Shown here: positions 13,290-50,373 of the stretch, in pieces
Numbering within the stretch: the stretch's first letter is position 1
Layout: each line of letters opens with the position of its first letter
Assembly (NCBI RefSeq): GCF_036971445.1
Contig: NC_091477.1
Location: forward strand, 120,590,001-120,654,000
Length of the DNA stretch: 64,000 nucleotides
Direction: 5' to 3'
Source: Narcine bancroftii
Lineage: Eukaryota
Made by a program: the position numbers and the translations under genes
Notes under the pieces: model-generated
Databases searched by the model: none
What the model was told of the DNA's origin: nothing
The model's input: only the letters and a program-made list of their open reading frames with translations

Positions 13290-14197
13290 TTATGGTGAAG
13301 TTCCTTTGCCCATCATGTGTTTCTTCGTGTTATTCTGCGGCTTCACTACAATAATGTAACATTTGGGTGCGAAAATACAGGCCAACAAACCAAAGCTTGA
13401 GGCCCAGATAGCAAACACTTCCACGGCCACCGTGTACTTCCCTGGAGAACTCACATAAGCTGGAATGAACGTGATCCAAACCGCGCAGAAGATCAACATG
13501 CTGAAGGTGATGTACTTGGCGTCATTGAAGTTGTCTGGAAGTTTCCGGGCAAGGAAAGCGAGAACTAAACACACAATGGACAAAAGAGCAATATAGGCCG
13601 ATACCAAGTAAAAGGCCGTTAATGACCCCACGTCGCATTCCAGAATAATGATGTCTCGATAATAGCTCATGTTTTTCAGGGGATGGGGAGGTGACACACT
13701 TAGCCAGACAACGCAAACTAAAGCCTGCAGAAATGTCAGGATACACACGCCCAGCCGTTGCTGAGCGGGTCCAAACCAGTTCATCACGCTCCTGTTGGGA
13801 AGAGTTGCTTTAAAGGCCACCACAACTAGAATGGTTTTGCCCAAAATGCAGGAAATGCAGAGAACGAAAACAACTCCGAAAACAGTGCGACGCAACCTGC
13901 AAGACCAGTCGGAGGGTTCCCCAATGAAGCTGAGCGAGCAAATGAAGCAAAGCATGAGAGCGAAGAGAAGGAGGAAGCTGAGCTCGGAGTTGTTCGCTTT
14001 CACCATGGGAGTTTCCCGGTAACGGTAGAAAATAGCAGCGGTGGCCAAGGTGAAGCAGACTCCCACTAGAGCGAGCGTCACCAACACAAACCCCAGAACT
14101 TCTCCAAAGGAAAGGAACTCCACCTTCTTGCGAACACATCGGGTTTTCTGTTGATTTGACCAGTATTCCGAGGGACATTTCATGCAATCTGTGGAAT
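13290..14197 (-). CDS. gene B exon 6 (7TM)
   Basis: cttattcag|AT acceptor; open to the TAA at 13290. Confidence 0.95.
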
Positions 14198-17100
14198 CTG
14201 AATAAGGAAATCCAATGTGAAACTCCAAATATTCGTGAGCACAGAATATGAAATTCCGGAGGCCCCGTGCAATACAGTTACATACTTGCACAGCAGGAAA
14301 GTGGACATTTTGGCGCACCATGTGGCACTGCTGAGGAAGCCGGCAGCGCAATGCAAGGACAAAGTGGCCATGCTCCGGATTCGTACCCGGATCATCTCGA
14401 AGGACTTTGTATGCGTGTATGGGTAGGGTTTCCCCGGATCGGATTTCATCCCACCCTTCAAAATGCACGAAAGTTGGAGGAGGTTGGAGGTTAATTTAGT
14501 CCATTTTGGAAGCATGAGCTTGTGTGCTGTTACCCTGCTGTACATGAATTTTAACACAAACATTTTTCCAATCTCCTCTATATTAATGGACTCACCTGTG
14601 ATGTTGCTAATCTCACCATCGGCACATTCTGCACAGTCAAAACAACATGTCGGTTGCCCTTTCAGACTCACTTTCCTTGTTCCGGGAAGACAGGGTTCTG
14701 AGCAAATTGCTCGTGGGATCTAAAGCAAAACGACACCAAATGCCTATTTTATCATATCCACGTGATGAAACATAGGAAAATCTGTTCCGTTTTTCCCAAT
14801 ACTCATGTTATCCCAGACTCCCAAATTATTCTTCAGATTTTTATTGTTTAATTCACATCAAGGCTCTTCTCTTTGTGGGCCATGTCTAGCAGTTCTCACG
14901 GTCATACAGTCGAAATGTAGACCGGTCTGGGCTGAATGACGCTATCCACTCACACAGGTCTTTTTTTTCAATATTCTTTAGAACCTCCGCACTCAATATA
15001 TTCAACCATTGAACCACACACTGGGACAATGTGGGCATTCTGAACTCCAACGAATAAAAATATAATCCATTCACACTACGCTTGCACAGAAATTGGTGTA
15101 TTCGACAATCGGTATTAACTGCCTCCATCTACCATGTTGTCCTTATTGGCCAGAAAAAGTCCACGGTAAAGCGGCATACCTTATATCTGTTCGTACTCCA
15201 CATGATATCTCCAAAATTCATTACCAGCTCGTGACCTGGCAGAGCTGAGCCTTCATAATAGCCAATATTCACAATGTCAATTGTACCCTCTGAATTTGTT
15301 TGCAGGTTCACCAATTCGTATCTTGGCACTGGATCACCGTTTTCATCAAAATGTACGATTTCTCCAGTCTTCGCTGTGAAATTAACGAGGCGTAGGTAGT
15401 GGAGCAGCTGGGAAAGAATAAAGCACAGAAGGGGAGAAGTTAGCAGTGACGTTGATTCGGAATGCGGAGGTACAGACGTTGAACTTCTCTATACACCCAA
15501 ATTATTTAAATATTCTATAGGATAATTGTCACCTGGAGTAATATGTTGATCTTGGAGGCGCCCCATCAATATAATGTACATATATCTAGCGGTGGGTCAG
15601 GGATGAAGATACTGGCCTTGGTTAACTCGATATCATCACTGAATGAAAATCACTATTTAAGACCCAAGACAAAAACCTCGAACCGTACAGCACGGAAACG
15701 GGTGCTTCCATCCTTCTAGTCTGTACAGGTCAACTTTTCTGCCTAGTCCTACTGGCCTGCACCAGGTCCATAGCCCTCCATACCTCTCTTATCCATGTAC
15801 TTCTACATTGTGTGTCAGTTTCCTGTAGAACATTTGAATACTTTGGGTGTACAGTTTTCATTTTAGATCTCCCCATCTCTTTTGGCTCTTTAAATAGCTG
15901 TCCACTCTGATTTTCAAGGGGACCAATTTTGTCCCTTGCTATCCTTTTGCTCTTACTATACCTGCAGAATCCATTGGGATTTTCCTTCACATTGCATACA
16001 AAAGGAACCTTGTGTCTTATTTTAGATGTTTTGATTTCTTTCTTGGGTTTCTTCTTGCATTTTATACTCCTCATGTACCTCATTTTCTCCATGTTGCCTA
16101 CTATTCACCACTCTCTTCTTCTGAACCAGATCCCCAATCTACCTGACAGGAATATACAAGTGCTTTACTCTCAACATTGTGGTCTCCCACTTAGTCCTCA
16201 TGTCATCACTTGAAAACAATTGTTCAAGTCCATGCATTCTAGGTCCTCTCTTATTTCATCACAATTGCCTTTCTCCAATTTACAAACTCAACCCGAGGAC
16301 CAGAACTATCCTTCTCCATAATGACATTTTGATCATTGGACCCAAAAGGTTCCCCAACACACTTCTATCACCAGTCCTGTCTCGTTACGCAATAGGAGAT
16401 CCATTATTGTATTCTCTCTGGTTGGGAGGCCTCTATGTATTGATTCAGAAAACTTTCCTGAATGCATTTGACAAACTCCAAGCCATCCAGTCCTTTTATG
16501 GTATGGGAGTCAATATATGGACAGTTAAAATGCCCTGCTATCACGACCTATGTTTCCTTCAGTTCTGTTCTATCTCTACATATTTGCTTCTTAAATTTTC
16601 ATTAACTATTGTGTGGTCATACCTTTCCTTTTCCTCTGCTCCACCCATTTAGCCTCAGTAGAGGCAGCTACTTGTCTGTCCCATCTGATAACAGCTGTAT
16701 ATTTTCCCTGAGGAGCAATGCTACTCCTTCCCCTTTCATCCCCGCCCTCTGCTCTCTTGTGTCTGAAGTAATTGAAGCCCAGAACATTGAGCTGCCAGTC
16801 CTGCTCCTCCTTCAAACGTTTCACGAATGGCCACAAGGTCATAATTCCACGTGTCAATCCACGTTCTAAAATCGCCTGCCTTTTCTGCAGTACTTCTTGC
16901 ATTGAAATAGATGCACCTGAGAACAATTCCACCACGTACAACCTTTGACTTCTAACATTACAAATAATTTCCACCTGTCTTTTATTTCCTGCACCCTTTA
17001 TCCATCTGGCACTCTGGTCCTCACCAGGAGAATTATGTTTGAATCCGATAACCCACCCTCCACCCCCATCCCCCAGCAGTACTATCAAATCTTCCCGCAA

Positions 17101-20100
17101 GGATATTAGTCCCGCTCGTTCAGATGCAAAAACAGAACAGGTCCACCTTCCCTGGAATAGAGCTGAATGATCTAGCATCCTAAACCTGCACCATGTCTTT
17201 TGACACGTTTTAAGTTGCATTATCTTCTTATTTCTATCCTCACTGCTAGGACGCGGCACTGGGACCAGTCTTGAGACAACAACCCGAAGAGGCCTTGTCC
17301 TTCAACTTAGCGCTTAACAACCTGAAAACTCTCTTTGCAGGACCTCATTGCCCTTCCTACGCACGTCTTCATCCCCGAAGGCCCCAAAGGTGCGGAAGTT
17401 TTGTTCTGTGGCTGTGCAGCCTGTCAGATGTAAACACATTCCACCCATCCCTTTCCCGCCCCACCCCCACCCCCACAAGAAGCTGGAGAAAAAACTGCCC
17501 TAATATCGTTCATAAACAAGGGATCTTGTACAAGTGCTGATGTCAATATTCATCCTTTACCAATCCCCACTGCTGACGATCTGCACACGAAACACACCAT
17601 CACCGGGGTAATCTTTATCCTGCAAATTAGCTGCCCTGTTCCCCACACTTTGCATATTCATATGTTTAACCTTTGAACCTATTCTCTAAAAGAAGAATTT
17701 TGATAATCACGAAGAAAATTGTGGCCAAAGTGTCTTGGATGGCGAAGAAATGAAAATGGAACCACATAAATTTCAAGCATTGATCATAGCTCTCCCGCAT
17801 TGCCAATGTGCTGTTTGTAAGCACAAGAAAAGCTCATATTTCAATACCTGCCAAGGCTCAAAATTTGAAATCTGTGCACATGTGTGATTCACAAAGGGCC
17901 CGTTGCCTTCTTCACAGGTTAACAGGTCGTGGAGAGCATGAGCGATAGCGTAGACCGCTTTATTCACGTGGTAAGAACTTCCGTCCATTATTGCCGGCAG
18001 GTAGGAGTTTTCTATCCCTTCCATTTGTTCCTTCCCTGTGCATTGCTGAACTGGAACAGGAGAATTTCCTGAAATGATCGTGTTCTCAGTGGTAAACCTG
18101 CATGTGAACAACGTCTCCCAAAACTCTGTCACCAAAACGTTGCCTGGAAATTTGGAAGGATGGACATTATGAAGAAACTCTCTGAGTTCGTCGATCTCTG
18201 TCCTGTAGACTGCTGTACCGATTGTCCCGGCGAGATAAATTGCATTTAATTCGGGCGAGAGAAGATGTCCTGTAACCCAGCCCTCGCTTCCGATCCACTG
18301 GATGCCCGTTACGTTTTGACGCCAAATTTCCTCCAACAAAATCCGCATTTCCCCGGCAGCAGCAATGGCCACCACTACATCCGTGGACGCCTGTTTAATC
18401 ACCCGGACAATGTTCCTGATTTTCACCACTGGGTCGGTCCTCTGAAATGACTCCGAGTAGGCGATACAAACCCCAAACTTTTCCACGTGCTCCACAAATC
18501 CCTGCATTCCAAAATTGCCATAATCGTTGTTACTTCTTATAGTTCCGACCCACGTCCAACCGAACGTTCTCACCAGTTCAGCGAGAACTTTGAACTGGTA
18601 CTCGTCGCTGGGTATAGTTCTAAAAAATGTCGGGTATTCCTGCTTATCGCTAAGGCAGGAGCAGGTGGAGTAGGGACTGACCTGCAGAGAAAATGATCAA
18701 TATATGAATACCATTTTAATTTTACTTCTGGTTCAAAACTTGATAGATCAGGTGGAAATATTGTTGAATATAAAATAGTTAAAATCGTGACAGATTTAAT
18801 GAATGAGATGAGACTTGTTGATAGTTGGGGGAAAGTACGTCCTCATGATAGGGACTATTTTTATACTTTTAGACACAAGACGTATTCACGTATTGATTTT
18901 TTTGAAGTTTCTCCACAATTACAAGCTTAATTTCAGAAGATAGAATATCAAGCAAGTATATTATCGGATCATTCACCTTTAGTGATATCAATTGCGTTGG
19001 GAGAAGAACAAAATGTGAATTATAGATGGAGATTTAATACAATACTTTTAAAGAGGAAGGACGTTTGTGAATTTATGAGGCCAACATAAAATTTTAACTA
19101 GAAATTAATGAACACTCAGTAGCAAATAAATTTATTGTATGGGACTTTGAAAACCTATTTAAGAAGACATATAATGAGTTGCACATCTAAAATAAAGAAG
19201 GAATATATGAAAGCAGTAGATCAATTAGACAAAGATATATTGTATTTAGAAAAGGAATTACATATTCATAAAAATGAAGAGAAACAAAGATTATTGGAAT
19301 CAAAAAAATTGAAACGTAATGCAATCTTATAAAGTAGAACGACGTACTGAGACAGAAATATTATGAATTAGTTGATAGAGCCTATAAAATTTTAACATGG
19401 AAACTCAAAGCTGAGCAATTATCAAGACCAATAATAGCACAAAAAGAGAAACTGGTCAAATTACATAGAAAACGCAAGAAATTAATGATCTTAGGATTTT
19501 TTATAAACAATTATATCAGTCTGAATGTTTAAAGGACGAGGAAAAATAGATGAATATCTATAACAAGTTACATTGCCTAAAATAAATGTCGATGAATAAA
19601 TGAAATTATCCAATTCCTTTACGAATGTTGAATTACATGATGTTTTGATGTTTTTGCCAAATAATAAGACTCTAAGAGAGGATGGTTTCTCTCTGGAGGT
19701 TAATGAAGAACTTAACCAGCTGTTACTTCCTGCTTTATGGTACTTTTTGAACAAATGAAAAACTCTAATGACTTACCAGAATCTTTTAAAATAACATTAA
19801 TAAAAGTTCTTCCAAAAAGGGAAAAATCCTTTATTACCATCGTCTTATAGAACGGTATCATTATTAAATACAGATAATAAAATAGTATCCAAATTATTAC
19901 CTAACACATTAACTAAATATTTGCCTAAAATAATAAATATGGATCAGACTGGCTTTATTAAACATAGAAGATCTGCAGACGATAGAGTTAAAATTATGTT
20001 TATTAAATGTAGCCCATTCTCCGTGACTTTAGACGCAGAAAAATTGTATGATAGACTAGAATGGGACTTTTATTAAAAGTAATGAATTTTTTCGGAATTC

Positions 20101-23100
20101 CAAATGATTTTATAAATTGGATAAGAGCTTTGTATAATCATCCAAAAGCTAAGGTGGGCACGAATAGGCAAATATCTAAACCTTTTCTATTAGAAAGATC
20201 ATCTAGACAAGGATGCCCATTATCATCATTTTTATTTGCATTGGCCATATAACTGTTGACAGAAGTGATAAGGAGAGATAATGAGATTAAGAGTTATTTG
20301 ATAGAAGATAGAGAACATAAAATTAACTTATTTGCAGATGATGTTACTTACAGAACCAGAAATAACATTGAAGAAAATTAATGCACAATTGGTAGAATAT
20401 CGTTTGATATCAGGTTATAAAGTCAATGTAGGAAAGACTGAAGTGATGCCTATGAATGATGAGGAGTATACATACATTAAGTAAGCAGGTGATGATGTTT
20501 AAGTGGTAAAAGGAAGCAATTAAATATTTAGGAATTAATATTGATAGAAATTTAAATAATTTATTTAAACTGTCATTACCAAAAAATTATTTAATATTTA
20601 AAGAGATGGAAAGATTTACCAATATATTTAATAGGAAGGGTAAACTGTATAAAGATTAATATTTTTCCCAGGTTGTAATATTTATTTCATTCATTACCCA
20701 TTCCTATACCAACGAAGGTTTTCAATAATTAAATAAAAGTGTAAGAAAATTTATTAGTCATGATAAAATGCCAAGGAAAGCTTTGGAAAAATTACCTTGG
20801 AAATTTTATCAGGAAGGATTACACTTAGCGAATTTAAAAAATTATTATAAAGCAGCTCAATTAAGATTTCTATCCTCCTGTTATCAAATTGGGCAGAAGA
20901 CAGCAAGGGTACCTATGAAATGAATAATATAGGAGAAACTAATCCAGAACAATTTTTATATAAATGGAACAAAGAACCTTTGAGAGGAGTACCAATTTTA
21001 AAACATTTATTCAAGATATGGGATGGAATTCATGTACAAAGAGGAATTAAGAACTACCAAATAGCTAAGATGATGTTAAAGCAGAATGCACTTCATCCTT
21101 TTACTTTAAATAATCCTTTCTTTGATATCTGGCACAATAATGGGATAAAGAGGATAAAAGAATGCGTCTTAGGTCCTTTTTACTTGACGTTCCAACAAAT
21201 GAAAGAGAAATACAATATAACAATACAGGAATACCTGGTCCTGGCAACTGTAGAATTACATTTGCATGGATCACAGGCATCGTTTGAAAAATATTCAAAC
21301 TTTTCACAAATTACTTATATATTACAACAAAAGTTACACAGAGTTAAACGTTGTACGATTTATTAACCATTTTCCAAGCTCTAAAATGCAATTTTATCAC
21401 GTGTCTTCTCTACTAACTTATTTCTGCTATAGAACGTTATGTCATTGCTCTTTACTAACATCGAACGTCGTTGAAAATCGTCATTATAGTGCCTCATTCA
21501 AATATTTAACCCATTACCAGTGGGATTCCGAAGGATCCGATTGTCCGTGCGGTTACGATGGAGTTTGTGGATAGTTCACAACCAACGATGGCAGCGACGT
21601 TGGAGGAGCTTCTACATTCCGGGTATTCAATCATTTCTTCTTCTCCGTTGATCAAAGTGAACGCTGCCCTCGAGGCAATCGCTGGGGACGAGCAGTCATC
21701 GTGGATCTTGTACCCGAGTGTGATCCCGGGGAGAAGGTTTTCATCCTGATTTATTTCTTCAATGGTAAAAATCATGGTCTGCGCCAAACGGAAGCTTGTA
21801 TAATCAACACTGAAGAAAGGATAAGGGGAGGGAGAGAGAGAGGAAGTAATAAAAACCGTTCAAATTAATCATTCGACTAAATATAATGTCAAACTATTTA
21901 AATAGTATAATTTACTTATTATTATACAAGACAACTATAAAAAAAAACATGAACATCAAATGCCGCTGAAAACGAGTGCCTGTCAGCTCTCCACTCCTCT
22001 GTGGTATGGGATCTGTGTTACTCACAGGCGTACTGTGGAAGGTACACGAGGAGAGAGGGCTGCGAAACGTAGAAAATATAGTTGGGTCCATCTCAGGCTC
22101 TAACTCCCATCTTTGTGAGGCGCTGCCTCCGTCGACACGCACCTCAACTCCCAGGTGGTGGCTTTCTCCCACTCCTTTCTCCCGACAGGAGGTAAAGAAA
22201 CCAGAAAGCCAGCACCCGTGGGTTGAGAAATAGTTTCTTTCCAACCGCTATCAGACTCTTGAACTTCCCCTTGGGACATCAACAATAGACTGCTCCAATG
22301 CCACACATTTATTGTACATCTATATTATTGTCTCTACAATGCCTACCTGCTTGACTGCAGCAAGTAAGAATTTCAATGTCGATCTGCATTGTACAATATG
22401 TTTTTCAATAAACTGATCGTTAACTTCAATGTTTAAGCTTTGGACATAGACCTTCTGAGTTCACATCCTTGAGATGAGCTTCGGGCACAGATCTCCTCAA
22501 CTTTCTACCCTGATGTATTTCGAAACCTGAACTCGGTTCACGACACGCCCTCGCTGTTCATATTTGACCATCTCCAATCTCAGGGCATAAACTGGGATCA
22601 GGAAATAGCAATGACCGGATATTGCAGGAGAGAGCTGAAGAGGGACGCGAAAAGTTAGCCCATATTCCTCGCAATTCATGACTGTCCTTGTATGTGCACA
22701 TTTTTGCGAATGACAGTTCAGTGGATAGGAAGCTCCCAGTGCACTCACAACAAAGATAACTCATTGGACATTTTGTGGTTTCTCTGTGATCTCACAAGAA
22801 GGTTTATTGACAGATAAATGATCGGAACTACAATTCAGAGGATTAATATTCTGATGACTTTAGCTGGGTTTATGTGTAACCAAATATGGTAATTTAAATC
22901 AAAAGGTTAGCAGCGGTAAGGCTTTTCTCTTTATAATGCCGAATGACGAGACGTAACTTAATCAAGGTGTATAAGATCATTAAGATCATGAAGGGTTTAG
23001 ATTTAGTGGACAGCCTATTTCCAGAGCACATCTGTTTGATGGGGAGTGGAGGAAAATTTAGGGAAGATGTCAGATTAAGGTTATTTTTCATAGAGAAAAT

Positions 23101-26100
23101 GTAATGCAGCGTCGACCTGGTGCAATATGAACATTCAATAGACACATAGATGGGCACATGGATGTCAAAATATAGAATTATTTGGGCCAAGTGAGGTAGA
23201 ATTTGATTGTTGCAGAGTTGGTTTATATTGCTGGGTCAATAAAGTGGCTGACGGACCTGTACTGTGCCGTAATGTTCCATGCTTTATTTGTCAAAGTATC
23301 AAGTGTCGTAATAAGAATATTGCAAGTGTTTTCTGTACTCGGATTATGGTGAACATTTATTGTCTATCTTAAGTATTATTGTTGCATTTTAATTTAATTC
23401 ATTAATTGACTATAGAGCTTTTTTTTACACGTACCTACCAGTTCGGAAGCAGGAACTAGGATTTTCGGTGCGTGTGTGCATTGTATAATGTGTATGACAA
23501 TAGACACATCGTTATCTACGATATCACTTTCAGATTAACGTTTTAGCTCCAGACACAGACCACCCCACCTCACTGCCCTCCGGTGTTCCTAATTCTGATC
23601 TCGGCTCCTGAACTACCCTCCTTGTTGATATGTAACCACCTCCAAGCTCAGAGCATAAAACCCTAACCCGTGGAGAGGGCTCTAGGCGGACGCGCAATGT
23701 TTACCTCTATTCCCCCCAATCCATGACCGCCTTTGTACATGCGCGGATCCGAGAATGGCAGTTCCGTGGATAAGAAGCTCAGGGTGCAGTCAGGCAACAA
23801 CTATAAATGTCGCATTCGACATTTTATTGTCTCTTTGTGATCACAAAAGAACATTTATGACAGAAAATTGATCGGAACTAGCATTCATAGGACTACAATT
23901 CTGGTTTTAATTTAAAGTGTTACGCGTCCAACCCAACACGTTATAGTAGAAATATATGTTGCCATCATCCAATGGCTTCCGCCAGTATTTTTTTCTAGTC
24001 CATCGCATTGCTTTAGAGGCGTGTGATGCTATTAATATGCACATATAAGAGTCAGTGAAGCGCAGATTTCACCTTTAAATAGAGATTCACCCTTCATATT
24101 CCTTCACTGTCATTTTTCAATCCGACGTAAAGAACATCATTGATTGTTTCAGCTCAAACTCTATTTCACAGAGCTGAAAATCTTCAAATGAAGATACAAT
24201 TACAACTTTGAAAATATATTTCAAGGGTTATGGACACATTCGGATTCAATGCGTCAAAACAGATAGAGACCACAGCCGGCATGAACAAGATGGGTAGAAA
24301 GGACTCATTTTTGTGATGTGTCTACCTCAGATTCCACGATGATAACTCTTCTGGCAAAAGCTGCATGACTGCCAAATAAAATGGAAAATGCAATGTTTAC
24401 GTAAACTCTGCAAAGGAACAGATTAATCACGCAAAATAATTAAGAATTAATGACTTAAAATTCTGCCTTTGCTGCCATTTGAAAGCGGGAAACTGTTGGG
24501 AAAATCGGCACTTAAGGCAACATTTGACAGGTCACAGGTGAAGCCCAGTTTGGAACATTGCGTGCATTTCTGGTCACCAAATTACAGGAAGGATACCAGT
24601 AAGATGAAGAGTGTGCAGAGATTTACTAGGATTTTGCCGCGTCTTCAAAGTTGAATGGCAGGGAAAGATTAAACAGCTTAAGACTTTATTCCTTGGAGCG
24701 TTGAAGAATGATGGATATTTACAAATCTATGAGGGATATAGAGAGAGTAAATGTGAGTAGGCTCTTTCCACTTAGATAAGGAGAGATAAATACAAGAGGA
24801 CATGGCTTTAGGGTGAAAGGGGAAAGGTTTAGGGGTAACATTAGGGGGAATCTTTTCACTCAGAGAGTGGTGGGAGTCTGGAGTGAGCTGCCATATGACG
24901 TGGTAAATGCAGGGTCACTCTTAAGTTTTAAAACTAAATTCGATAGATGCATGAATGGGAGAGGTCAGGAGGGTTATGGAATTGGTGCAGGAAACGTATT
25001 TAACTGAAAAAGTTGAGGAGAGATTGGATTGGCCATGTTGTAGCATCGTCTTTTAATTCAAAAGCAAGAGGTGTTGGTATTTTAATTCATTTTAAAAAGT
25101 TATCTTTTACACTGGATTCAGTTTTCCAGCTGTTGGTAGATTGTTGTTTGTTAATTGTAAGATTTTTTCGGAGGCTTGGACTCCGATCAATGTTTATACC
25201 CCTAATGTAGGCGATGATTGTTTTATGGCAGAAGCTTTTCTGAATTTAAATCAGGCTTATGATAATGTGTTGGTTAGTGGTGATTTCAACAGCTGTTGGG
25301 ACCCTTTATTAGATAAATCTCCAAAAACATTAGGTAAAACGAAGCTGGCTAAACAGTTGTTGATGGTAATGAAGGATTTGAATTTGGTAGAGATTTGGAG
25401 GAGGTTAAATCTGACAGAAAAAGATTTCTCTTTTTATTCCGCTCGGCATGATTCTTATTCTAGAATAGATCTATTTTTAGTAACAGCACAATTACAGGGT
25501 AGACCTATTCAGGCTGAATATAAAAGTTGGGATTTTGTCTGATCATTCTTTATTATTAATTACTTGTATTGGTTCAGAAAGGGTTGAAAATACATATTGG
25601 TGGATATTTAATATATTGTTGAAAAAAACTGAATTTATTACATTTTTGAGAGAAAATATAAAATACCTTTTGCAAATAAATGAGGGATCAGTGCGAAGTA
25701 AATTAATCTTAGGAGATGCATTGAAAGTCTATCTGAGGGGACAAATTATTAGTTATACAGCTAAAGTTAAAAAGCAATATCTGGTAGAGAGTCAAGATTT
25801 AGAAAAAGAGATAGATAAGTTGGAAAAAGAAGTACAATCAGACACCACAGAAGTTTAAAAAGCTCATATAACTAAATTAAATTTATGGTACAATACTTTA
25901 TAAATTTATACATTTGAAAAATTATTGGAAAGAACGTTATTATGAGCTGGGTGAATGTGCCCACAAAGTGTTAGTTTGGCAGTTGAAGATTGAACAGGTT
26001 TCAAGGACAATAGTGCTATTATACGGGGTACAACAATTACTTATGAACATCAGGAGATTAATGATGAATGTCGTTTATATTATGAGGAGTTGTATACCTT

Positions 26101-30559: not shown

Positions 30560-30615
30560 TGTTCTATTACAGAAAATCTCTCACTATTGTTCTTCGGTAA
30601 AGGGAAGAACCTGGA

Positions 30616-30621
30616 TTTATA
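30616..30621 (-). promoter_or_regulatory. putative TATA box, gene B
   Basis: TATAAA 57-62 nt upstream of the ATG. Confidence 0.6.
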
Positions 30622-39481: not shown

Positions 39482-39487
39482 TATAAA
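39482..39487 (+). promoter_or_regulatory. putative TATA box, gene C
   Basis: TATAAA 57-62 nt upstream of the ATG at 39544. Confidence 0.6.
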
Positions 39488-39543
39488 TTCAGGTTCTTCC
39501 CTTTAAAGTGTAACGATAGTGACAGGTCCCCTGCAATAGAACA

Positions 39544-39746
39544 ATGCCTTGGTTTCTGGTTCTCCTGTTGCTGGCCGCGACGCGAGAAACACGCGAAATC
39601 GTCTGTAGGCGTCGAGCAAAAGTCAGTTTGTCTGATTTAGCCAAGGATGGGGATATCATTCTTGGAGGAATATTTACGGTGCACATGGATCCGATTCTAG
39701 ACTTCCCTTCGTTCGCTTTTCCTCCGAAAAGCACTGGGTGCAGAAG
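39544..39746 (+). CDS. gene C exon 1
   Basis: [12 protein letters not shown]...; 203 nt; AG|gtgggt. Confidence 0.93.
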
Positions 39747-42700
39747 GTGGGTCCACCTCTTGGAGGCAGGCATTTGGTCGCTATTCGGAACAATGTTGTC
39801 ATCCTTTGGTTTGATATTTGAATTCGAGAGTTAATTATCGTCTGACCACTGTTATCTCTATTTTCCTTTCCTGCCTCTGTAACAATACATTTAACATCGT
39901 ACTTCCACGGAAAAAATGTTGAAATAAACTTTGCTATTCAGCTACTTTATGTCAAATTTGAAAAGAAACTTGACAAATCGAATGCACGTTTGAACGGAGT
40001 GGTATTTACTGTATGTTGTAGTAAGGTACCATCAATGGCCGATTTAAATTTCCATGTCAGATAGTTCAGTAATACGTAATGATACCTTGTGGGCATTTTC
40101 TCTGGGGATCTTCTGGGCAAATTAACTACATTCTTTCGTTTTGTAAGACTGTGGGGATGGACTCTCCAGAGCGGGAGTCTGTGACCGATTCTGACATGAG
40201 GGTTTTTGCAATGAATTCATTCAGAGCTGCGAAATGTAAATAGAAATGGCTGATTTTCGTGCTCTCCCACTAAATCTAAATTGAACTTTTTTGGAAGGGG
40301 AGGGAAATTAAATCATGAATGATATCCAGGCTCCGTTGCCATGGCATTATATGCTAATACCGAATAAGAAAGGAAAGACTATTGTCTTCTCTGATGAACT
40401 GGGAAACATCTCATCTTCTCCCTGCGCTGCAATGACAATGTGGCATTAAGAATCTCAGTACGTGTCTGACCTTGTTGACAAAGCTTCCCTCGATTTCCTG
40501 AAGATATATCTTTCTTGAAATACTCGGAAACTGAATCTACCCTGCTCTCGTGATCTGAAAATTCTATCCTTCTTGATACTCTATCCCTCTTGTGTGAAAA
40601 AAAATCGTTCCTTTCAGAAATACACGACCTACATTTCAAGTGCAAACCAAGCGAAGATCCAAACTAATTCAGGCTTGCTCGATACCTGCTGGAGAACCAT
40701 CTTTATTTTTAAAATAATTAATCATTCTGACTAATAATTATGTCCTTTTCTCATATATATAATTTATATTAGCATTTCGCCTTCCACTTTAATTGGCAGG
40801 TAAGGTAACTTTTATTACCATTGATAGGAGTGTAGTGGAAACGTACAGCAGAGAAACGGATCTGTCGGCCCACGGTGTCTATTATCTCCGTGGATCCGTT
40901 TGAAATGCCAGGCCCGGACACCGTGGCCGTTTTAACGCGATCATTCTATCTGCTTAATGTTATTCGCCCTCTGCGACGGAGCAGATTGTCCTTCTATGGC
41001 CTTGGATTTGAACATTATTGTATGCTATTAATCTGAAGGCTCGCTAAAGCGCACGTCGCTATTTGTGGTTATGGTTTAATGTAAATAACATCGTCAATGT
41101 TGCCTGAATGACGACATCTAAATAATGAGAAAATAGCTGGAAATGGCTTGATGTGTTTATATTATAATTTATTGGGTGTGCAAGACATCTAAAGCAACAA
41201 CATTTGGTACATATGATCTTCAGGCAATATCATCTGAATTCCGCTCATTCTTTTGTCACTAAACTGACTTGAGTGATCACTGAGGGACCTCAAAATGCTC
41301 AATGCCTCGGGTAACACTTTGACCTCCTCGTTACCATCGGAGGATCGCTGCACTTGCGAGATCGACGACGATTTCTGGGAATGGTGGGAGCTCGTCCAGA
41401 TCCCTGGTGCGGGGAACGCCGTTTGCTGTTGGGACGGATTACCTTGGAGGCCTTGAGCTAGGAGGTGGTGAAATATCAACAAGTGCGGGTCCAGAGTCGA
41501 GGACAGAGTTGGGTGCAGGTGGAGAGGTTTGTGCCCAGAGCTGAAACCTGATGCTGGAACATATTAGGGCCGGGGAGCTGGAAGCCATTGATCCTGAGTG
41601 ACACATACGTTTCCTTTTCTATCGACGAGGTATGTAAAATTAATTGCGCGAATAATCAGGACTTGCTGTGGTTTTTGGATGATCCTTTGCGAACGATAAC
41701 TTTTTTACATTTCAATGTATGATTGAATTCCTAACTTTCAGTTTTTATCACATACTTATCCGCAGTATTAACTTTTCGAGCTTCCGAGTAGCGCAAACCA
41801 TGATTTTTGCCATTGAAGAAATAAACCAGAATGAAAATCTACTTCCTGGGATCTCCCTCGGGTACAAGATCCACGACGACTGCTCGTCTTCCGCGATCGC
41901 TTCGAAAGCAGCGCTCACTTTAACCAATGGAGGAGAGGAACTGATTGAATACCCAGAATGTAGAGGCTCCTCCAACGTCGCTGCCATCGTGGGTTGTGAT
42001 ATATCCACAAACTCCATCGTCACCGCAAACACGATCGGATCCTTTGGAATCCCGATGGTAATGGGCCAGATATTTGATTGTAATGTTATGATAACGACAT
42101 TCAACTCGCTTCAGATTCCTTCTTTAGCACAGACATGAACACACATGGTCCGGGCTGTGAGTTGGGGGGTGTGCCATAATTGGTGGTGGTCGTAAGATCG
42201 TAATTCAAAGAGCTCGGGTAATTACCACAATTCATATCCAGCAGAAGCGTGGAAAGATGTTAGTTGTAAAATTGACGTAATTCTGCAAAATAATCTCAGA
42301 ATTCCCGTTCCCTTCTCAATGCTGAATACTTGCTGTTGTGTACAAGGATCAAATATTTCACTTTGAAATGGTAGCGACGTCTCTGTCATTTTCAGTGCAA
42401 GCCTGAGCAAGGTACTCATGTAGTTAACATTTCCTCTGCAGGTTAGTCACTTCTCCACCTGCTCCTGTCTGAGCGATAAGCAGGAATACCCTACGTTCTT
42501 CAGAACGATACCCAGTGACGAACACCAGTCCAGAATTCTCGCAGAACTCGTGCGAGCCTTCGGCTGGTCTTGGATCGGAACCCTTAGAAGTAACACCGAA
42601 TACGGCAATTTTGGAATGCAGGGATTTGTGGAGCACGTGGAAAAGTTTGGGGTTTGTATCGCCTACTCGGAATCATTTTACAGGACCGACCCAGCGGAGA

Positions 42701-45700
42701 AAATCAGGAAAATTGTCCAGGTGATTAAACAGGCGTCCACAAAAGTGGTGGTGGCGTTTCTTGATATTGGTGATATGCGAGTTTTATTGAACGAAATTTG
42801 GCGTCAAAACGTAACGGGTATACAGTGGATTGGAAGCGAGGGCTGGATTACAGGAAACCTTCTGCCGCCTCAAGTAGAAGGAAGGTATATCACCGGGACT
42901 ATCGGGCTGGCAACTCATAGGACAGAGATCGCCGAACTCAGAAATTTCCTTCATAATGTCCATCCTTCCAATTTTCCTGGAAACCGTTTGGTGACAGAGT
43001 TTTGGGAAACTTTATTTACATGTTATTTTACCATTGACAACATAACAGGAAATTCTCCAGTTCCATTTCGGCAGTGCACAGGGAAGGAACAGATGGAAGG
43101 GATAGAAAACTCCTACCTTCCAGCGATAATGGACGGAAGTTCTTACCACGTGTATAAAGCGGTCTACGCTATCGCTCATGCGCTCCACGACCTGTTAACC
43201 TGTGAAGAAGGCAACGGGCCCTTTGCGAATCACACATGTGCACAGATTTCAAACTTTGAGCCTTGGCAGGTAGGAAATCCTACACCTATTTTGTTACCCA
43301 ATCGGCAATGATAAAAGTTTGGACCTTATCTTGTGACATTTGCATTCACCTTGTATATGTTTTTGTGGTGATCGAAATTTTATTTTCAGACTTTACATTT
43401 TATTTTAAAATAAAATTTTATTTTAGAAGGTCAATATTTTAGTCTGTGAAGTGTGGGAAATGGGGCCCCTAATTTGCAGAGATAAGGACTCCCCCGATTA
43501 CCTTGTGATTTTCATTTTGATTAACTGCATTGGGCAACAGCCGAAGGATAATGTTAGACGGGAACTGGTAGAACATTCCAGCTTTCGGAATGATCGAGTG
43601 TGGGGGGTTCGTTTCTCATTTTTGCAGAGCACCATCTAACAGACGGAAACCCTACGGGGCAGTACTCGCTCCGGCTTGCTGTGGAGCGGCAGAGAGCTCA
43701 AGTATATCCTCCCCAGCCTGTGGTTCAGTGGTGATGCCCAGTGAACCGCGGCGTCTATTTTAATACTTGACCCATCTTCAGAAATACTGAAGAGGCGTCT
43801 CAATATGTCTCGCCACAAGGCGTTCAAACTGGGTGGACAGTGACATCGAGCCCACGGCAGGGCTAAAGGTTAACCTTCCTTCCTTCCTTCCTCCCCAGCT
43901 GCTCCACTACATGCGTTTCGTCAATTTCACAGCGAAGACGGGAGAAAATATTTATTTTGATGCAAATGGTGATCCAGTGCCAAGATACGAATTCGTGAAC
44001 TTGCAAACTAATTCGGAGGGTAGAGTGGACATTGTGAACATTGGATATTATGATGGGTCAGCTCCGCCAGGGCGCGAACTGGCAATGAACACGGGGGATA
44101 TAGTGTGGAGCGGGAATGCAAATAAGGTATGCCTTTTTTTTCACCGTGGATTTATATCGGGGAAGTGGAAAATAATGGGATTAGGGTGATATGGTGGATG
44201 TTGTCATTTCTTACCGAATCCTCTGATTTGACCAATTTAAAGTGCACTCTCCCCAGTTTTCCTTCTTGGAGTTCAGAAAAAATAGGGACCACCATCTTCA
44301 AATGTGAGAGACCCTAAGAGACCTTGACAGGGTAGATGTTGAGATTGTTTCACCAGTTTGAACGTGTCGAACGAGAAGATTTTTTTAAAGATCAATGATT
44401 AAGACTAAACAATGTGTAATTTCTCGCCTGAGAGTCTCGAGAATTTATGCTAGATCGTTAGATACATGAATTCGTAGAAAGATCAAGGAATTGACAGTCA
44501 TGCAGAACTACCATAGAAGCGGAGTTGAGGAGGCACAGATTTTATATTTCAGTTTATTATCATACATGACTTCACTTACAACCGCTGGATCCTTTATTCT
44601 GGGGGCGAGGCAGAATTGCCACTTATTGCTAGTGCGAAAAAAAAACTATACACCCCATATACATATAAACAAATAAATAAATGTCAATAGATAAGAAATG
44701 TAGACGAAGCGAACTGTGCAATGCAGAGAGAGAGAGAAAATCACTAAGCGCACAAGCAAGAGTCCTTAAATGAGTCCCTGATTGAGTTTGTCGTTGATGA
44801 ATCTGACGATGGAGGGGTAGCAGCTATTCCTGAACCTGGTGGAGTGAGTCGTGTGGCAGCAGCCAGAACGGAGTGGAGATCCTTGATAATTACTGCTGCT
44901 CTACAACGGCAGCGTTCCCTGTAGATGTTCTCGATGGTGGGGAGGGTTTTACCTGTTATGTCCTGGGTTGTGACCACTACTGTGGAAAGAATATTAACTT
45001 GTTGCAACATGGCTTTGTTTGTCTGCCTAAAGTAACAAACAAAGACAAATCCATCTCTGGCACTTGCCTCCCATCCACTGAAAGCATCAATCTGAGACGC
45101 TGCCTGAAAAAGGAAGCCAACAGCATAAGGGGGCTCCCATCAACCTAGTCGCAGCTCTTGCTGCTGTTCCATTCAGGCAGAAGGTATAGAAGCCAGAGGT
45201 CCAGCACTTTCAGGTTCAAGAATATGTTTTTTTTTTTATCTAACAGCTCCCAGGATGAGACCAACAGATCATCAGAAATGTCTTCATTCTTCTATGCAAG
45301 TTGAAGGGAAACACTTCGTATTTTATCTGGGAGCCCTTCAACCAGATAGCACCAACATTGACCTTTCCAGTTTTCTATTAGCATCCCACCCCATGTCTCC
45401 TTTCCCCCCTGTCTATCTGCCTCTCTATTCCCTTTACCCCCTGCATCCTTTATCCCAGCTCTGCATTCGCAGAGATATTCCTCTTGTCCCTAACATTCCA
45501 ACATTTCCTCTACCCTGGCCTCTTCTCCATATCCAATTATCAGCTTTTTTCTGTAGTTTGCCTTCCTCCCTCTGTCGTTTATTTTATTCATCCATTGCAT
45601 GCATGAAGAAATGTCCAGGGCCGAATCATCTGTAATATATCTTTATCTCTCATGGACGCTGCGAGACCAGCTGAGTTCCTCCTGCATTTCTGTTTTTACT

Positions 45701-48700
45701 ACAATCATAGCATCTGCAGACTTCTGTGTTTCACTTTATCCAACAGCACTCATGCTTTTGAACCTCCATGTCCTACCCTAAAACCAACATAAATTACTCA
45801 GGGACCGCCAAAGGATCTTTTTGCACAACTGAAATGTAACTTTTTTTCTTGCACTAGTTTCACTGTAATTTTTAAATTTGAAATGTATTATCTCTAGTTC
45901 AGTCTTGGCATATATGGTAATTTAATTTATGCTATTGTTGTGGTGTATCTTGTGCACCTGTGTGGCTGCAGGGAGTAAATATTTTGGTACATCATTCTCT
46001 TTCTTTGGCTTGGCTTCACGGACGAAGATTTATGGAGGGGGTAAAAGTCCACGTCAGCTGCAGGCTCGTTTGTGGCTGACAAGTCTGATGCGGGACAGGC
46101 AGACACGGTTGCAGCGGCTGCAGGGGAAAAATGGTTGGTTGGGGTTGGGTGTTGGGTTTTTCCTCCTTTGCCTTTTGTCAGTGAGGTGGGCTCTGCGGTC
46201 TTCTTCAAAGGAGGTTGCTGCCCGCCAAACTGTGAGGCGCCAAGATGCACGGTTTGAGGCGATATCAGCCCACTGGCGGTGGTCAATGTGGCAGGCACCA
46301 AGAGATTTCTTTAGGCAGTCCTTGTACCTTTTCTTTGGTGCACCTCTGTCACGGTGGCCAGTGGAGAGCTCGCCATATAACACGATCTTGGGAAGGCGAT
46401 GGTCCTCCATTCTGGAGACGTGACCCACCCAGCGCAGCTGGATCTTCAGCAGCGTGGACTCAATGCTGTCGACCTCTGCCATCTCGAGTACTTCGACGTT
46501 AGGGATGAAAGCGCTCCAATGGATGTTGAGGATGGAGCGGAGACTTCATTATACTTACAGTATGTATGCATCAACAAACTTACATTGTGTTATGGACATT
46601 TAAGGTGTGAGTAAAATGTTTGCATAGTGATGGTTGCCCGAGCATGCAGTCAAGAGAAATGGTTAAAGATCATAGAGTAGCAATGTTTATAAGGCATCTG
46701 GATGGAGACATGAAGTGGCATTGAATGGAGGGAAATAGACCATGGGCAGGCAGAGATGCCATCATGGTTGGTACAGACATCAAGGGGCGAAGGACAATTA
46801 TCACATTCTCTGGGCCAGTTCTCTTCACAACAGGGAAAGATACAAGGAAGTAAAATATTGCAACAAGGGACGATTAGCCTAGTGGTTAGAGCAACGCTGT
46901 TACAGCACCAACGATCAGGACCTTGGTTCAAATCCGGCGCTGTCTGTAAGGAGTTTGTATGTTCTCCACGTGTCTGCATGGTTTCCCACGGGGACTCTGG
47001 TCTCCCACTTTTCAAAACGTACCATTTGGTGGTTCTAGGTTTAATTGGTGAAACTGCGCGGCATAAGCCGAAACTGTGCTGTATATCTACATTTTAAATT
47101 TTTTAATTTAAATTTAAATTCAACATCATGAATAGTTTGCGGAAGAAAATTGCCGGAAAACAGTGCAGCAAGCTGTGCACCTACCTCATAGCTCTAATGA
47201 CGCATGCTCCATCCTGCCCTGAGCTGCTGGTGGCGTGGAGTATACACGTTCTCCCTGCAACTGCATGAGTTTCTTAAAGGTGCTTGGATTTCTTACCAGA
47301 TGCCAAAGATGTGCTGTTTCGTTGGCAACTAGCTCCTGGTGTGTGGGTGTTAGTTATCAAACACCCCCTCCACTAATCCTGGCATGTTTCCCCAAATTTC
47401 TATCAACTCCCTCAGATTCTGCGTCTCACCAACACACCAGCATATCCCTAGGCCTGGCCCTAACCTTGATCTGAGTCAACAATAAGAGGTATAGAAGAGA
47501 AAGAAACTGACCTGTAGAATATTGTCATGGCAAATGGACAGCCAGCAACTTTGGGAAGAGCATTTTTCTTTCTTTACTTTTTTAATATTAGTATTGAATG
47601 TTATATAATAGGACATTCTTACATAAAAGAATGATGCATAAAATTAATGCAGACTGTAACAGACCGGATGAGCACAATATATCAGAGAGAAAAATATTTC
47701 TATTTTGCAAAATATTATTCAAAGGTCAAAATGAAAAAAGGAAAATAGAAAAAAGTATACAATTAATGAATCTAAACCCCAAACAATTCCTAAGTTGCAT
47801 AACAATATAGAAAACAACTGCCAGTAGAAATAAAAAGATACACATAGCCACAAGAATCACAAAGAACCTGATTATGATCCCATTAGAGGCTGTGAAAATA
47901 ATTCCAAAAAGAACCTCAAAGATTAGGAAAAATTAAATTCGAGCCACTGATGGAACTTATTATTTTCTCCAAGGTTAAATGTTACATTGTATCATGTACC
48001 CATTGATTCTGAGAGGTTGGGACAGTGTCTTTCCACTGAATCAAAATAACTCGTCTTCAATAAGAGAGGCTAATACGTGATATGGAAATGAAGACCATTT
48101 CATGACCCTCTGTTCAACCATCCCAAACAAGGCCACAATGGGTCTGGTGCTGGGTTTACATTAATAATTATTGATACAGTACAGAAGACTGCTTCCCAAT
48201 ACTTGGCAAGGGTTGAACAAGGCCAAAACATATGAATTAATGATCTGTCCTCATTCGTACATCTGTCATAAAAGGAGCTAATATTAGGGTAAATACAAAC
48301 TAGTTTAACTTTAGACATATATGCTCTATGCACAACTTTGAATTGTAACAGTGCATGACGGGCACAAGGAGAAGACGAATTAACCAACAAAAATAGAGTT
48401 CCAAGAATCATCAGAAATAGAAATGTGGAGGTCCGACTGCCAGGCCTTTTTAATTTTATCGCTGAAGCTTGCCTTGATTTCAGCCAAGCATAATATACAA
48501 TCACTATTAACCTTTCTGAGTTGGTTGAAAATTGTAAATTGTAAATTGTTTCTATCAAATTCATAACGGGAACCTGCAAGAATGTTGAATATTGAGAATA
48601 GAGAAAAGTCTCTAATCTGCAAATATCTAAAAAAAAGTGAGAATTTGGTCAATTTTTTTAAAATTGCTGAAATGTAGCAAGATTATTATCAATAAATAAA

Positions 48701-50373
48701 TCAGAAAAATGTTTAATACCTAATCTTGGCCAATCCTGAAAAGCAGGGTCCAAGGTTGAAAAAAATAATTAGATAAAATAGGACTGAAAAGTAGAAACCT
48801 TTAGTGCCCAAAATGTTTTCTGAACTGATCATAGCCTCACATATCTACATTATCTACACTGTAGTGCATTTGCCATACATTTGTCCTTGCATATAATCTG
48901 CCAAACCAACCATCACCCTCTCCCCCATCTCTTGGGAACTTCTTCATCCAGCTTCGTGTCAACTGCAAATATGGAGATATTTTATGCAATTCCTTCATCT
49001 GCAAGGTCATCAAAATATTTTGCAAATGGTTGGGTTACTTCACTGTTCCTCATTAGTAACTCCCTGCCAATCTGAAAAATACCCATTTATTGCCAATCTC
49101 TGCTTACTTCCTGGCAACCAATTATAGCTCTCTGTGATTACAGATACATATGTATGTTCGTTTTGTTTTTAGATTCCACAAGCAATTTGCTCAGAACCCT
49201 GTCTTCCTGGGACACGGAAAGTGAACCGAAAAGGGCAGCCAACATGTTGTTTTGACTGTGCAAAATGTGCCGATGGTGAAATTAGCAACATCACAGGTGA
49301 GTTCAGAGAGAGGGACAGGTTCATGGACAACCTGGTCAAATTGTCTGTTTCTTACTATAAAATTCTGTGACTCTATGTCCCACTATGAGACAGTGTCTCG
49401 TGAATTGCGAAGTACCGTGCTGACCAATATTCTTGTAGGGAACATCGGAAGTTATTATTTTTCAGATTCCACAGATTGCATCAAGTGTCCCTCAGAATAT
49501 TGGTCCAATCAGCAGAAAACCCAATGTGTTCGCAAGAAGGTTGAGTTTCTTTCCTTTGGTGAAGATCTGGGGTTTGTGTTGGTGACGCTCGTTCTAGTGG
49601 GAGTCTGCTTCACCTTGGCCACTGCTGTGATTTTTTACCTCTATCAAGAAACTCCCATGGTGAAAGCGAACAACTCCGAGCTCAGCTTCCTCCTTCTCTT
49701 CGCTCTGATGCTTTGCTTCATTTGCTCGCTCACCTTCATTGGGGAACCCTCCGACTGGTCTTGCATGTTGCGTCGCACTGTTTTTGGAGTTGTTTTCGTT
49801 CTCTGCATTTCCTGCATTTTGGGCAAAACCATTCTAGTTGTGGTGGCCTTTAAAGCAACTCTTCCCAACAGGAGCGTGATGAACTGGTTTGGACCCACTC
49901 AGCAACGGCTGGGCGTGTGCATCCTGACATTTTTGCAGGCTTTAATTTGCGTTGTCTGGCTAAGTGTGTCACCTCCCCATCCCCTGAAAAACATGAGCTA
50001 TTATCGAGACATCATTATTCTGGAATGTGACGCTGGGTCATTAACGGCCTTTTACTTGGTATCGGCCTATATTGCTCTTTTGTCCATTGTGTGTTTAGTT
50101 CTCGCTTTCCTTGCCCGGAAACTTCCAGACAACTTCAACGACGCCAAGTACATTACCTTCAGCATGTTGATCTTTTGCGCTGTTTGGATCACGTTTATTC
50201 CAGCTTATGTAAGTTCTCCGGGAAAGTACACAGTGGCTGTGGAAGTGTTTGCTATCTGGGCCTCAAGCTTTGGTTTGTTGGTCTGTATTTTTGCACCAAA
50301 ATGTTACATTATCTTACTGAAACCGCAGATCAACACAAAGAGACACATGATGGGCAAAGAAGCTTCACTGTAA
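39544..50373 (+). CDS. V2R/OlfC-family class C GPCR, gene C, complete (exons 39544-39746, 41766-42057, 42442-43269, 43899-44126, 49173-49296, 49466-50373; about 860 aa)
   Basis: Six exons with GT-AG sites summing to 2583 nt in frame; full Venus flytrap, cysteine-rich domain and 7TM architecture. Confidence 0.94.
41766..42057 (+). CDS. gene C exon 2
   Basis: ccgcag|T ... ATG|gtaatg; 292 nt. Confidence 0.94.
42442..43269 (+). CDS. gene C exon 3
   Basis: ctctgcag|GTT ... CAG|gtagga; 828 nt (2 codons shorter than in A and B). Confidence 0.94.
43899..44126 (+). CDS. gene C exon 4
   Basis: ccccag|CTG ... AAG|gtatgc; 228 nt. Confidence 0.94.
45248..45734 (+). mobile_element. Penelope-like fragment with TSD of about 13 bp, nested in a Rex1-like 3' end
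   Basis: Flanks are tttatcTaacagc and tttatcCaacagc; ends with ctgagttcctcc...gcatctgcagactt. Confidence 0.55.
45996..46544 (-). mobile_element. RTE LINE 3' fragment in gene C intron 4
   Basis: ORF 46054..46482 ([11 protein letters not shown]...SHKRACS) is near-identical to 61224..61652. Confidence 0.9.
46866..47100 (+). mobile_element. tRNA-derived SINE
   Basis: A box TAGCCTAGTGG, B box GTTCAAATCC, gtaaggagtttgtatgttctcc core and an AT-rich tail. Confidence 0.75.
47570..48830 (-). mobile_element. L1 3' remnant in gene C intron 4
   Basis: [10 protein letters not shown] and [16 protein letters not shown]...HMFWPC from the L1 ORF2 C-terminus. Confidence 0.8.
49173..49296 (+). CDS. gene C exon 5
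   Basis: ttttag|ATT ... ACAG|gtgagt; 124 nt; cysteine-rich domain cysteines. Confidence 0.94.
49466..50373 (+). CDS. gene C exon 6 (7TM)
   Basis: tttcag|AT; open to TAA. Confidence 0.95.

What the first reader, a model, noticed from the sequence alone, without database searches (positions are those of the whole stretch)
13290..50373. Exon 6 homogenised between inverted genes B and C, with one-way CpG decay in C
Seen: B 13505-13985 (reverse complement) and C 49681-50160 differ at only about 13 of 480 nt by eye, including silent sites, yet their 3' UTRs and most of intron 5 do not align. B appears closer here to C than to relic D, which shares B's 3' flank. Many of the differences are CG in B versus TG or CA in C (ttttCGgag/ttttTGgag, accCGct/accCAct, tgCGac/tgTGac, aCGgtggcCGtg/aCAgtggcTGtg, accCGatgt/accCAatgt); one runs the other way. 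Inference: concerted evolution of the 7TM exon across an inverted repeat, with C's copy decaying because it lies outside the CpG-retaining domain. This is independent support for the methylation boundary.
Basis: partly seen in the sequence, partly recalled or inferred. Interest (0 to 1): 0.7.

Follow-up and report, generated by a model that had tools for sequence, protein, structure and literature searches.

The report
Ray smell receptors share membrane exon
In a ray's cluster of V2R smell-receptor genes, seven copies carry a nearly identical membrane-spanning segment while their ligand-binding exons have long diverged, likely because they keep overwriting each other by gene conversion, and gene C, at the cluster's CpG-poor edge, is the copy that has drifted away and lost CpGs.

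Summary
The window lies in a V2R/OlfC receptor cluster of a ray. The cluster has eight full-length exon-6 copies in both orientations, and C is the most divergent: 57 of 906 differences from B, against 28-36 for the other six. Among the seven non-C copies, nt 82-593 have dS 0.015 against 0.27-0.68 in exons 2-4. A second clade has 400 identical nt in three genes. Shark and ray ectodomain and TM trees reject each other, and stingrays show no homogenisation. This is regional gene conversion, not assembly collapse. CpG loss in C is real but modest: 11:2 against B; after polarising, 6 of 68 CpG sites against 6 of 322 other C/G sites (p=0.009). A CpG boundary falls at about 44.5 kb, within C's intron 4. 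Germline methylation is inferred, not measured. Verdict: a known mechanism, not found described for V2R TM exons in my searches.

The parts
13290..14197 (-). Gene B exon 6 (end of cysteine-rich domain, 7TM, C-tail), open frame
   Evidence: AG acceptor; matches protein P0040 at 100%
13603..14114 (-). Homogenised core in B (exon nt 82-593, about TM1-TM5); identical to G2 over 512 nt
14591..30559 (-). Gene B exons 5 (14591-14719), 4 (about 15184-15410), 3 (17845-18681), 2 (about 21515-21810) and 1 (about 30366-30559); not homogenised
35420..35983 (-). Relic D: truncated exon 6 (nt 291-906) with deletions and a 4-nt insertion; keeps the relatives' letters at nt 369, 378, 471
34944..35419 (-). D 3' flank, paralogous to B 3' flank 12828-13289
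39544..44126 (+). Gene C exons 1-4 (exon 2 about 41765-42060, exon 3 42442-43272 ANF_receptor, exon 4 about 43897-44126); CpG o/e 0.90-1.19 in exons 2-4, no CpG loss
44456..45068 (.). Right edge of the CpG-rich domain (best changepoint 44499; CpG per C 0.175 to 0.065 in non-repeat DNA)
44127..49170 (+). Gene C intron 4, 5.0 kb against 0.4-1.3 kb in seven paralogs, with several interspersed repeats including a young LINE piece at 45992-46544
49173..49299 (+). Gene C exon 5 (NCD3G)
49466..50373 (+). Gene C exon 6 (7tm_3), open frame, 27 CpG against 35-39 in seven paralogs; 29 private differences in nt 1-880
49494..50238 (+). Six C-private CpG transitions at 49494, 49523, 49623, 49646, 50232, 50238
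   Evidence: relatives carry the pool letter at three directly, at three by absence of a row
1..5700 (-). Gene A exons 1-4 (exon 3 1028-1864, exon 2 2265-2552); its exon 6 lies just left of the window and belongs to the pool
1..44499 (.). Window part of the CpG-rich domain, which begins about 101 kb left of the window; GC content not raised

Best explanation
Seven V2R/OlfC copies of this cluster share a nearly identical TM1-TM5 segment of exon 6 while exons 2-4 are deeply diverged, likely through recurrent ectopic gene conversion, and gene C is the copy that has likely left this pool and since lost CpGs because its exons 5-6 lie outside a CpG-rich domain inferred to be under-methylated in the germline. 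Shown: the divergence pattern, C's outlier status, the second clade, the conflict of ectodomain and TM trees, the CpG boundary, the direction of C's changes. Inferred mechanism: the conserved, intron-free 900-nt exon is the longest stretch of near identity between paralogs and so templates repair from neighbours in either orientation; conversion of the Venus-flytrap exons does not persist, since homology is lower and it would erase ligand specificity. Inferred order: D dropped out first (three new letters then spread to all eight copies, C included); C dropped out later (six new letters spread to the seven only) and gathered about 20 private changes, 14 of them G/C to A/T. Confidence by step: conversion 0.9; C a late leaver 0.8; methylation as cause of C's CpG loss 0.55.
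For: dS among the seven 0.015 over nt 82-593 (131 synonymous sites) vs mean 0.44-0.51 in exons 2-4. Identical runs of 629 nt (G1-G3, same strand), 512 nt (G2-B, opposite strands), 485 nt (G1-G4, opposite) with unrelated flanks. 223 of 406 informative site pairs are four-gamete incompatible. Second clade: 0 differences over nt 201-600 in three genes whose exons 2-3 have dS 0.27-0.61. Letters absent from two relatives' runs are fixed in all seven copies (nt 174, 180, 240, 266, 453, 708). In 27 shark, sawfish and ray proteins the ectodomain and TM trees reject each other (AU p 1e-93 and 7e-58); P0081 is closer to P0090 than to its paralog P0116 in the ectodomain (0.90 vs 0.83) and the reverse in the TM (0.85 vs 0.93). 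GC3 0.58-0.60 in pool exon 6 vs 0.39-0.56 in exons 2-4. CpG: C exon 6 ratio of CpG to other C/G transitions about 5 after polarising (p=0.009), like the 4.1 of young LINE copies outside the domain and unlike the 1.3 of exons 2-4 inside it (34 of 520 vs 149 of 3056; p=0.018). Old repeats inside keep 24 of 61 ancestral CpGs against 14.2 expected; outside 115 of 488 against 115.9 (permutation p=0.010).
Against: Unpolarised, C's CpG excess is not significant (6 of 68 vs 11 of 322, p=0.09; p=0.14 against exons 2-4). Polarising rests on collapsed contigs of two coded relatives of unknown relationship; three of the six CpG sites rest on a missing row in a table with 4 rows cut, and nt 33, 466, 478 were mixed and dropped. 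Young LINE copies show no difference inside vs outside (ratio 3.8 vs 4.1, p=0.41). Old repeats at the edge keep 10 of 23 CpGs (8.7 expected), which fits either side. D has lost as many CpGs as C over shared columns. Within the cluster the exon-6 data do not reject the ectodomain tree (AU p=0.18), and incompatibility does not fall between adjacent sites (p=0.11). G3's 3' flank is also CpG-poor (0.37) yet its exon 6 stays in the pool. Pool-fixed changes are not GC-biased in the six firm cases (2 up, 2 down).
Confidence: 0.72

Rival explanations
1. C's CpG loss comes only from leaving the conversion pool: without GC-biased repair its exon relaxes towards the general A/T mutation bias, and methylation is the same on both sides of 44.5 kb.
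For: C's derived changes are 14 G/C to A/T vs 4 the reverse, half of the transitions outside CpG; D shows the same A/T drift inside the domain (11 of 184 vs 4 of 257); pool exon 6 has raised GC3; young LINEs do not differ in vs out.
Against: Unconverted exons 2-4 inside the domain keep CpG o/e 0.5-1.3 (0.77-1.3 in exons 2-3) at dS about 0.45; C's exon 5, intron-4 end (0.15) and 3' flank (0.31), none converted, are CpG-poor too; the domain is CpG-rich without being GC-rich.
Confidence: 0.3
2. One reading: B and C exchange exon 6 as the two arms of an inverted repeat.
For: B and C are inverted, 35 kb apart, and closer in exon 6 than in exons 2-4 (p=0.0002).
Against: C is the most distant copy from B; their longest identical run is 111 nt against 217-512 nt for B with the other six; same-strand pairs are as homogenised as inverted ones.
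Confidence: 0.04
3. One recent exon-6 replacement or a few unequal crossovers, not recurrent conversion, gave all copies the same segment.
For: The core is close to one haplotype in the seven.
Against: Both flanks differ gene by gene; tract ends are ragged; variants are shared in conflicting patterns; two waves of fixed letters; the pattern recurs in a second clade and in other elasmobranchs.
Confidence: 0.07
4. Selection on protein and codons, or a low mutation rate, keeps the TM core alike without exchange.
For: The 7TM is more constrained than the ectodomain (dN 0.022 vs 0.08-0.14).
Against: Synonymous sites are homogenised too; lineage-specific letters are shared across paralogs; in Hypanus, Hemitrygon and Mobula proteins the same core is only 0.80-0.83 identical within species, like the ectodomain.
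Confidence: 0.04
5. Assembly collapse or polishing wrote one sequence into several copies.
For: Identical runs of 400-629 nt; no long reads were laid.
Against: In run X3, contigs at single-copy depth (8.9-10.2) match C with 0 differences and bridge into its unique flanks (49100-49553, 50283-50600), while pool letters sit on contigs of depth 32-35.
Confidence: 0.04

Closest known systems
V2R/OlfC (fish-type) vomeronasal type 2 receptor cluster of cartilaginous fishes (PMC9018814, PMC10116579, PMC11979771; passages read)
   Same: Six-exon family C GPCR with ANF_receptor, NCD3G and 7tm_3; tandem cluster with pseudogenes; nearest proteins are elasmobranch receptors at 79-100%.
   Different: 'Concerted' occurs 0 times and 'conversion' 0 times in PMC9018814 and PMC10116579; TM-exon homogenisation and CpG-rich domains are not described in the passages seen.
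Regional gene conversion in clustered protocadherins (fugu, PMC1852091; passages read)
   Same: Paralogs >99% alike in one region, divergent in the specificity domains, raised GC3 in the converted part, lineage-specific, biases trees.
   Different: Other gene family; there the tract lies in one large exon of same-strand genes, here it is the 7TM exon of six-exon genes in both orientations.
TLR1/TLR6 conversion (PMC2077338; abstract read)
   Same: Paralogs closer than orthologs over the transmembrane and signalling part, ligand-side part free to diverge.
   Different: A two-gene case in mammals; here seven copies, a drop-out copy, and a link to a CpG boundary.
GENECONV signals in catfish OlfC subfamily 9 (PMC6588630; passages read)
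   Same: Gene conversion among OlfC paralogs.
   Different: The passages name no domain; its Supplementary Data 4, not read, may show the same TM tracts.

Membership tests
V2R/OlfC family C GPCR | Venus-flytrap + nine-cysteine + 7TM domains | tested here: met
   PF01094, PF07562, PF00003 above cut-off
V2R/OlfC family C GPCR | Six-exon structure with one 7TM exon, clustered | tested here: met
   six-exon norm recalled, not from a call
V2R/OlfC family C GPCR | Placement in the V2R clade, sister to CaSR, in a tree with outgroups | not tested
   Sources label the nearest proteins 'extracellular calcium-sensing receptor-like' and more distant ones 'vomeronasal type-2 receptor 1-like'; no CaSR outgroup tree built
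V2R/OlfC family C GPCR | Expression in olfactory sensory neurons | not testable with these tools
   no RNA holder listed
Regional gene conversion (concerted evolution) | Synonymous divergence far lower in one region than elsewhere in the same paralogs | tested here: met
Regional gene conversion (concerted evolution) | Paralogs closer than orthologs in the tract, reverse outside it | tested here: met
   proteins; DNA letters
Regional gene conversion (concerted evolution) | Mosaic, conflicting sharing of variants along the tract | tested here: inconclusive
   223 of 406 pairs incompatible, but adjacency test p=0.11 and within-cluster AU p=0.18
Regional gene conversion (concerted evolution) | Raised GC3 and GC-biased fixation in the tract | tested here: inconclusive
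   GC3 raised, six firm pool fixations balanced; second clade shows no rise (0.52-0.53 vs 0.54-0.61)
Germline hypomethylated domain | High CpG o/e over tens of kb without raised GC, in non-repeat DNA, with edges | tested here: met
Germline hypomethylated domain | Low CpG mutability inside | tested here: inconclusive
   met in exons 2-4, paralogous non-coding DNA and old repeats; not met in young LINEs
Germline hypomethylated domain | Measured low methylation in sperm or germ cells | not testable with these tools
   no methylome on hand
Pairwise inverted-repeat homogenisation (B with C) | The two arms are each other's closest copies | tested here: not met

The most novel reading that the evidence does not exclude
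A germline under-methylated domain defines which V2R genes can convert each other: both homogenised clades of this genome sit in CpG-rich islands, single genes mostly do not, and gene C left the pool when repeat insertions in intron 4 pushed its TM exon across the domain edge. Elasmobranch V2Rs would then be modular, with old orthologous ligand-binding heads on a lineage-wide shared signalling body, a process switched off in stingrays and mobulids.
Probability: 0.2. Interest if true: 0.78.

Novelty: new member of a known kind. Interest (0 to 1): 0.52.

Why it matters
[quoted passage not shown] Surveys find and count them with TM-domain queries (PMC9018814; its section 15 does not say whether the tree used the TM part alone). 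If the TM core is homogenised within lineages, TM-based trees show false recent species-specific expansions and hide old orthologous ligand-binding domains, and short-read assemblies will collapse copies. Gene C is a natural experiment, one gene across a CpG boundary, that makes the link between germline methylation and ectopic conversion testable with one methylome. The contrast between stingrays and other elasmobranchs offers a phylogenetic on/off comparison.

Tried and rejected
B-C as a special inverted pair: rejected. Young-LINE test of methylation inside vs outside: no difference (41 copies kept at 88% identity or more and 120 nt or more, which left out the two short in-domain pieces at 12.7 and 32.1 kb that keep 8 of 8 and 9 of 9 CpGs). 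Relic D as in-domain control: not decisive. Within-cluster tree test: only one direction rejected. PRDM9 status, as a reason why breaks might go to CpG-rich DNA: one marginal SSXRD hit (E 0.23) on C9 with no PR-domain hit on that contig among 24; PMC5519329 (passages) reports weak or missing SSXRD in some cartilaginous fishes; left open. Expression: no RNA holder listed. Earlier scan notes: none returned. Literature: no paper held all of V2R, gene conversion, transmembrane, concerted evolution; searches listed none whose title or abstract start describes TM-exon homogenisation in V2Rs or CpG-rich V2R domains in elasmobranchs; subscription journals are not searched. PMC3590772 (passages) raises conversion as an untested possibility for V2R clades; PMC10857554 (passages) concerns mutant hypomethylation of mouse gene clusters and did not bear on the claim.
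Full report
Setting. The window is G000:C21:120590001-120654000. Its genes carry ANF_receptor, NCD3G and 7tm_3 domains. Gene B's exon 6 matches protein P0040 at 100%, which its source labels as from the electric ray Narcine bancroftii; the next relatives are sawfish, stingray and shark receptors. I read the genes as fish-type V2R/OlfC receptors from domains, exon layout and clustering; no outgroup tree was built. A DNA search with C's exon 6 found 15 matches, of which seven other full-length copies at 92-94% plus relic D lie within 130 kb. In order: G1, G2, G3 (+ strand), G4, G5, A, B, D (- strand), C (+ strand). G2 lacks exon 2 and most of exon 3 and has a stop in exon 4; G1 has a TGA four codons before the usual stop.

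The observation. But over the whole exon B and C differ at 57 of 906 nt, and B differs from the six other copies at only 28-36. C has the longest exon-6 branch (0.060 vs 0.014-0.027).

Homogenisation. Mean pairwise dS is 0.47, 0.44, 0.51 and 0.46 for exons 2, 3, 4 and 5 and 0.12 for exon 6 (G2 is absent from the exon 2 and 3 sets). Among the seven non-C copies dS is 0.015 over nt 82-593, 0.125 before and 0.25 after; C against them is 0.11 in the core. G1 and G3 are identical over 629 nt, G2 and B over 512 nt, G1 and G4 over 485 nt, so orientation does not matter. A separate three-gene clade 600 kb away has no difference over nt 201-600, 16-25 per 100 nt in nt 1-200, and dS 0.27-0.61 in exons 2-3.

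Assembly. In run X3, contigs of depth 8.9-10.2 match C without a difference and reach from unique intron sequence into exon 6 and from exon 6 into the unique 3' flank; the pool's letters lie on contigs of depth 32-35. This argues against collapse. X3 may be the assembly's own sample, and no long read was seen.

Direction of change. Two runs of other organisms (X7, X11) were laid on C (122 rows cut) and on B (4 rows cut). Of 29 differences private to C in nt 1-880, the relatives carry C's letter at 6 (nt 174, 180, 240, 266, 453, 708), so these are likely new letters fixed in all seven other copies. They are mixed at 3 (dropped), and carry or are not listed as differing from the pool's letter at 20, taken as C-derived. 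At nt 369, 378 and 471 D and the relatives agree against C and the pool. This suggests that D left first and C later. The relatives' contigs collapse paralogs and their kinship is unknown, so this order is inferred.

Across elasmobranchs. I used 66 of the 120 proteins listed (those of sharks and rays, one 560-aa partial left out). Within-species identity of the TM core against the ectodomain is 0.98 vs 0.82 in the six proteins of this species and 0.99 vs 0.90 in four of Pristis, but 0.80-0.83 vs 0.80-0.82 in Hypanus, Hemitrygon and Mobula. For 27 of the 66 (stingrays, mobulids and one long-branch row left out) the two trees reject each other: ectodomains give cross-species orthologs, TM cores group by lineage. 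The set was chosen by likeness to B's exon 6 and clustered at 90% identity, which may bias it.

The CpG domain. Non-repeat CpG o/e is mostly 0.5-0.85 over the cluster, with a 24-kb gap, against mostly 0.2-0.4 in the flanks, at unchanged GC. The second clade lies in a similar island (0.55-0.84). Most single V2R genes do not, though the one beside the second clade is intermediate. The right edge is at 44499 (support 44456-45068), inside C's 5-kb intron 4. C's exons 2-4 have as many CpGs as their paralogs or more; exon 6 has 27 against 35-39. Inside the domain CpG transitions run at 1.3 times other C/G transitions in exons 2-4, and CpG to GpC turnover is 1.0-1.4 in paralogous non-coding DNA against 1.7-2.2 for repeat pairs outside (outside non-repeat classes gave 1.0-1.7). 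Old repeats inside keep more CpGs than expected (13 elements, p=0.010); young LINE copies do not differ (the family name RTE is my recall, Pfam gave only RVT_1).

CpG loss in C. Against B it is 11:2 (p=0.022). Six of the 11 are private to C, one is a gain in B (nt 825), and four are shared with copies inside the domain (nt 318, 430, 561, 870). Polarised, 6 of 68 CpG positions against 6 of 322 other C/G positions changed by transition (p=0.009); unpolarised p=0.09. The ratio of about 5 matches the outside background of 4.1. D, inside the domain, gives 2 of 38 against 8 of 181, but C and D do not differ significantly (p=0.20).

Mechanism. Recurrent ectopic conversion in the long, conserved 7TM exon is the best explanation (0.9). 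C has likely dropped out (0.8); it still has an open frame and 12 of its 20 derived changes are silent. Its CpG loss likely reflects germline methylation beyond 44.5 kb (0.55), with loss of GC-biased repair as the main rival. Whether the boundary caused the drop-out rests on one gene, and G3, with a CpG-poor 3' flank, stays in the pool.

Comparison and novelty. It works like regional conversion in fugu protocadherins (PMC1852091, passages) and TLR1/TLR6 (PMC2077338, abstract). Conversion in catfish OlfC has been reported without a named domain in the passages seen (PMC6588630; supplement not read). My searches found no description of TM-exon homogenisation in V2Rs. Verdict: a new member of a known kind, with an untested epigenetic link. 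Interest 0.52.

Noticed in passing
G000:C21:119.93-119.98 Mb (L010-L012, L040-L044): Second V2R clade of three genes: exon-6 nt 201-600 identical, exons 2-3 diverged, inside its own CpG-rich island.
   Followed up: yes
proteins P0059-P0119: Stingray and mobulid V2R paralogs have a TM core as diverged as the ectodomain (0.80-0.83), unlike other elasmobranchs sampled.
   Followed up: partly
G000:C21 about 120.52-120.544 Mb (L019-L021): A 24-kb GC-rich (up to 0.55), CpG-poor stretch interrupts the CpG-rich domain between G2 and G3; likely an insertion, not examined.
   Followed up: no
L002 (gene G1) and L008 (gene G2): G1 has a TGA four codons before the usual stop; G2 is a partial gene with a stop in exon 4 yet its exon-6 core is identical to B's over 512 nt.
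   Followed up: partly
window 49734-49896 and gene A: C's longest identical run is with gene A (163 nt), and they share a CpG-loss letter at nt 318; C may still exchange short tracts with the pool.
   Followed up: partly
window 2113-5682, 21372-24034, 29025-32041, 39381-39773: Paralogous intron-1 and upstream segments of A, B and C at 65-75% identity; B's intron 1 is 8.5 kb with an AT-rich LINE-like insert at about 25.0-28.6 kb.
   Followed up: no
window 11184-11546 and 34527-34889: A 363-nt duplicate at 93.7% downstream of both B and D, closer than their 3' flanks.
   Followed up: no
L096: Only SSXRD hit in the genome is marginal and has no PR domain on its contig; PRDM9 status open.
   Followed up: partly
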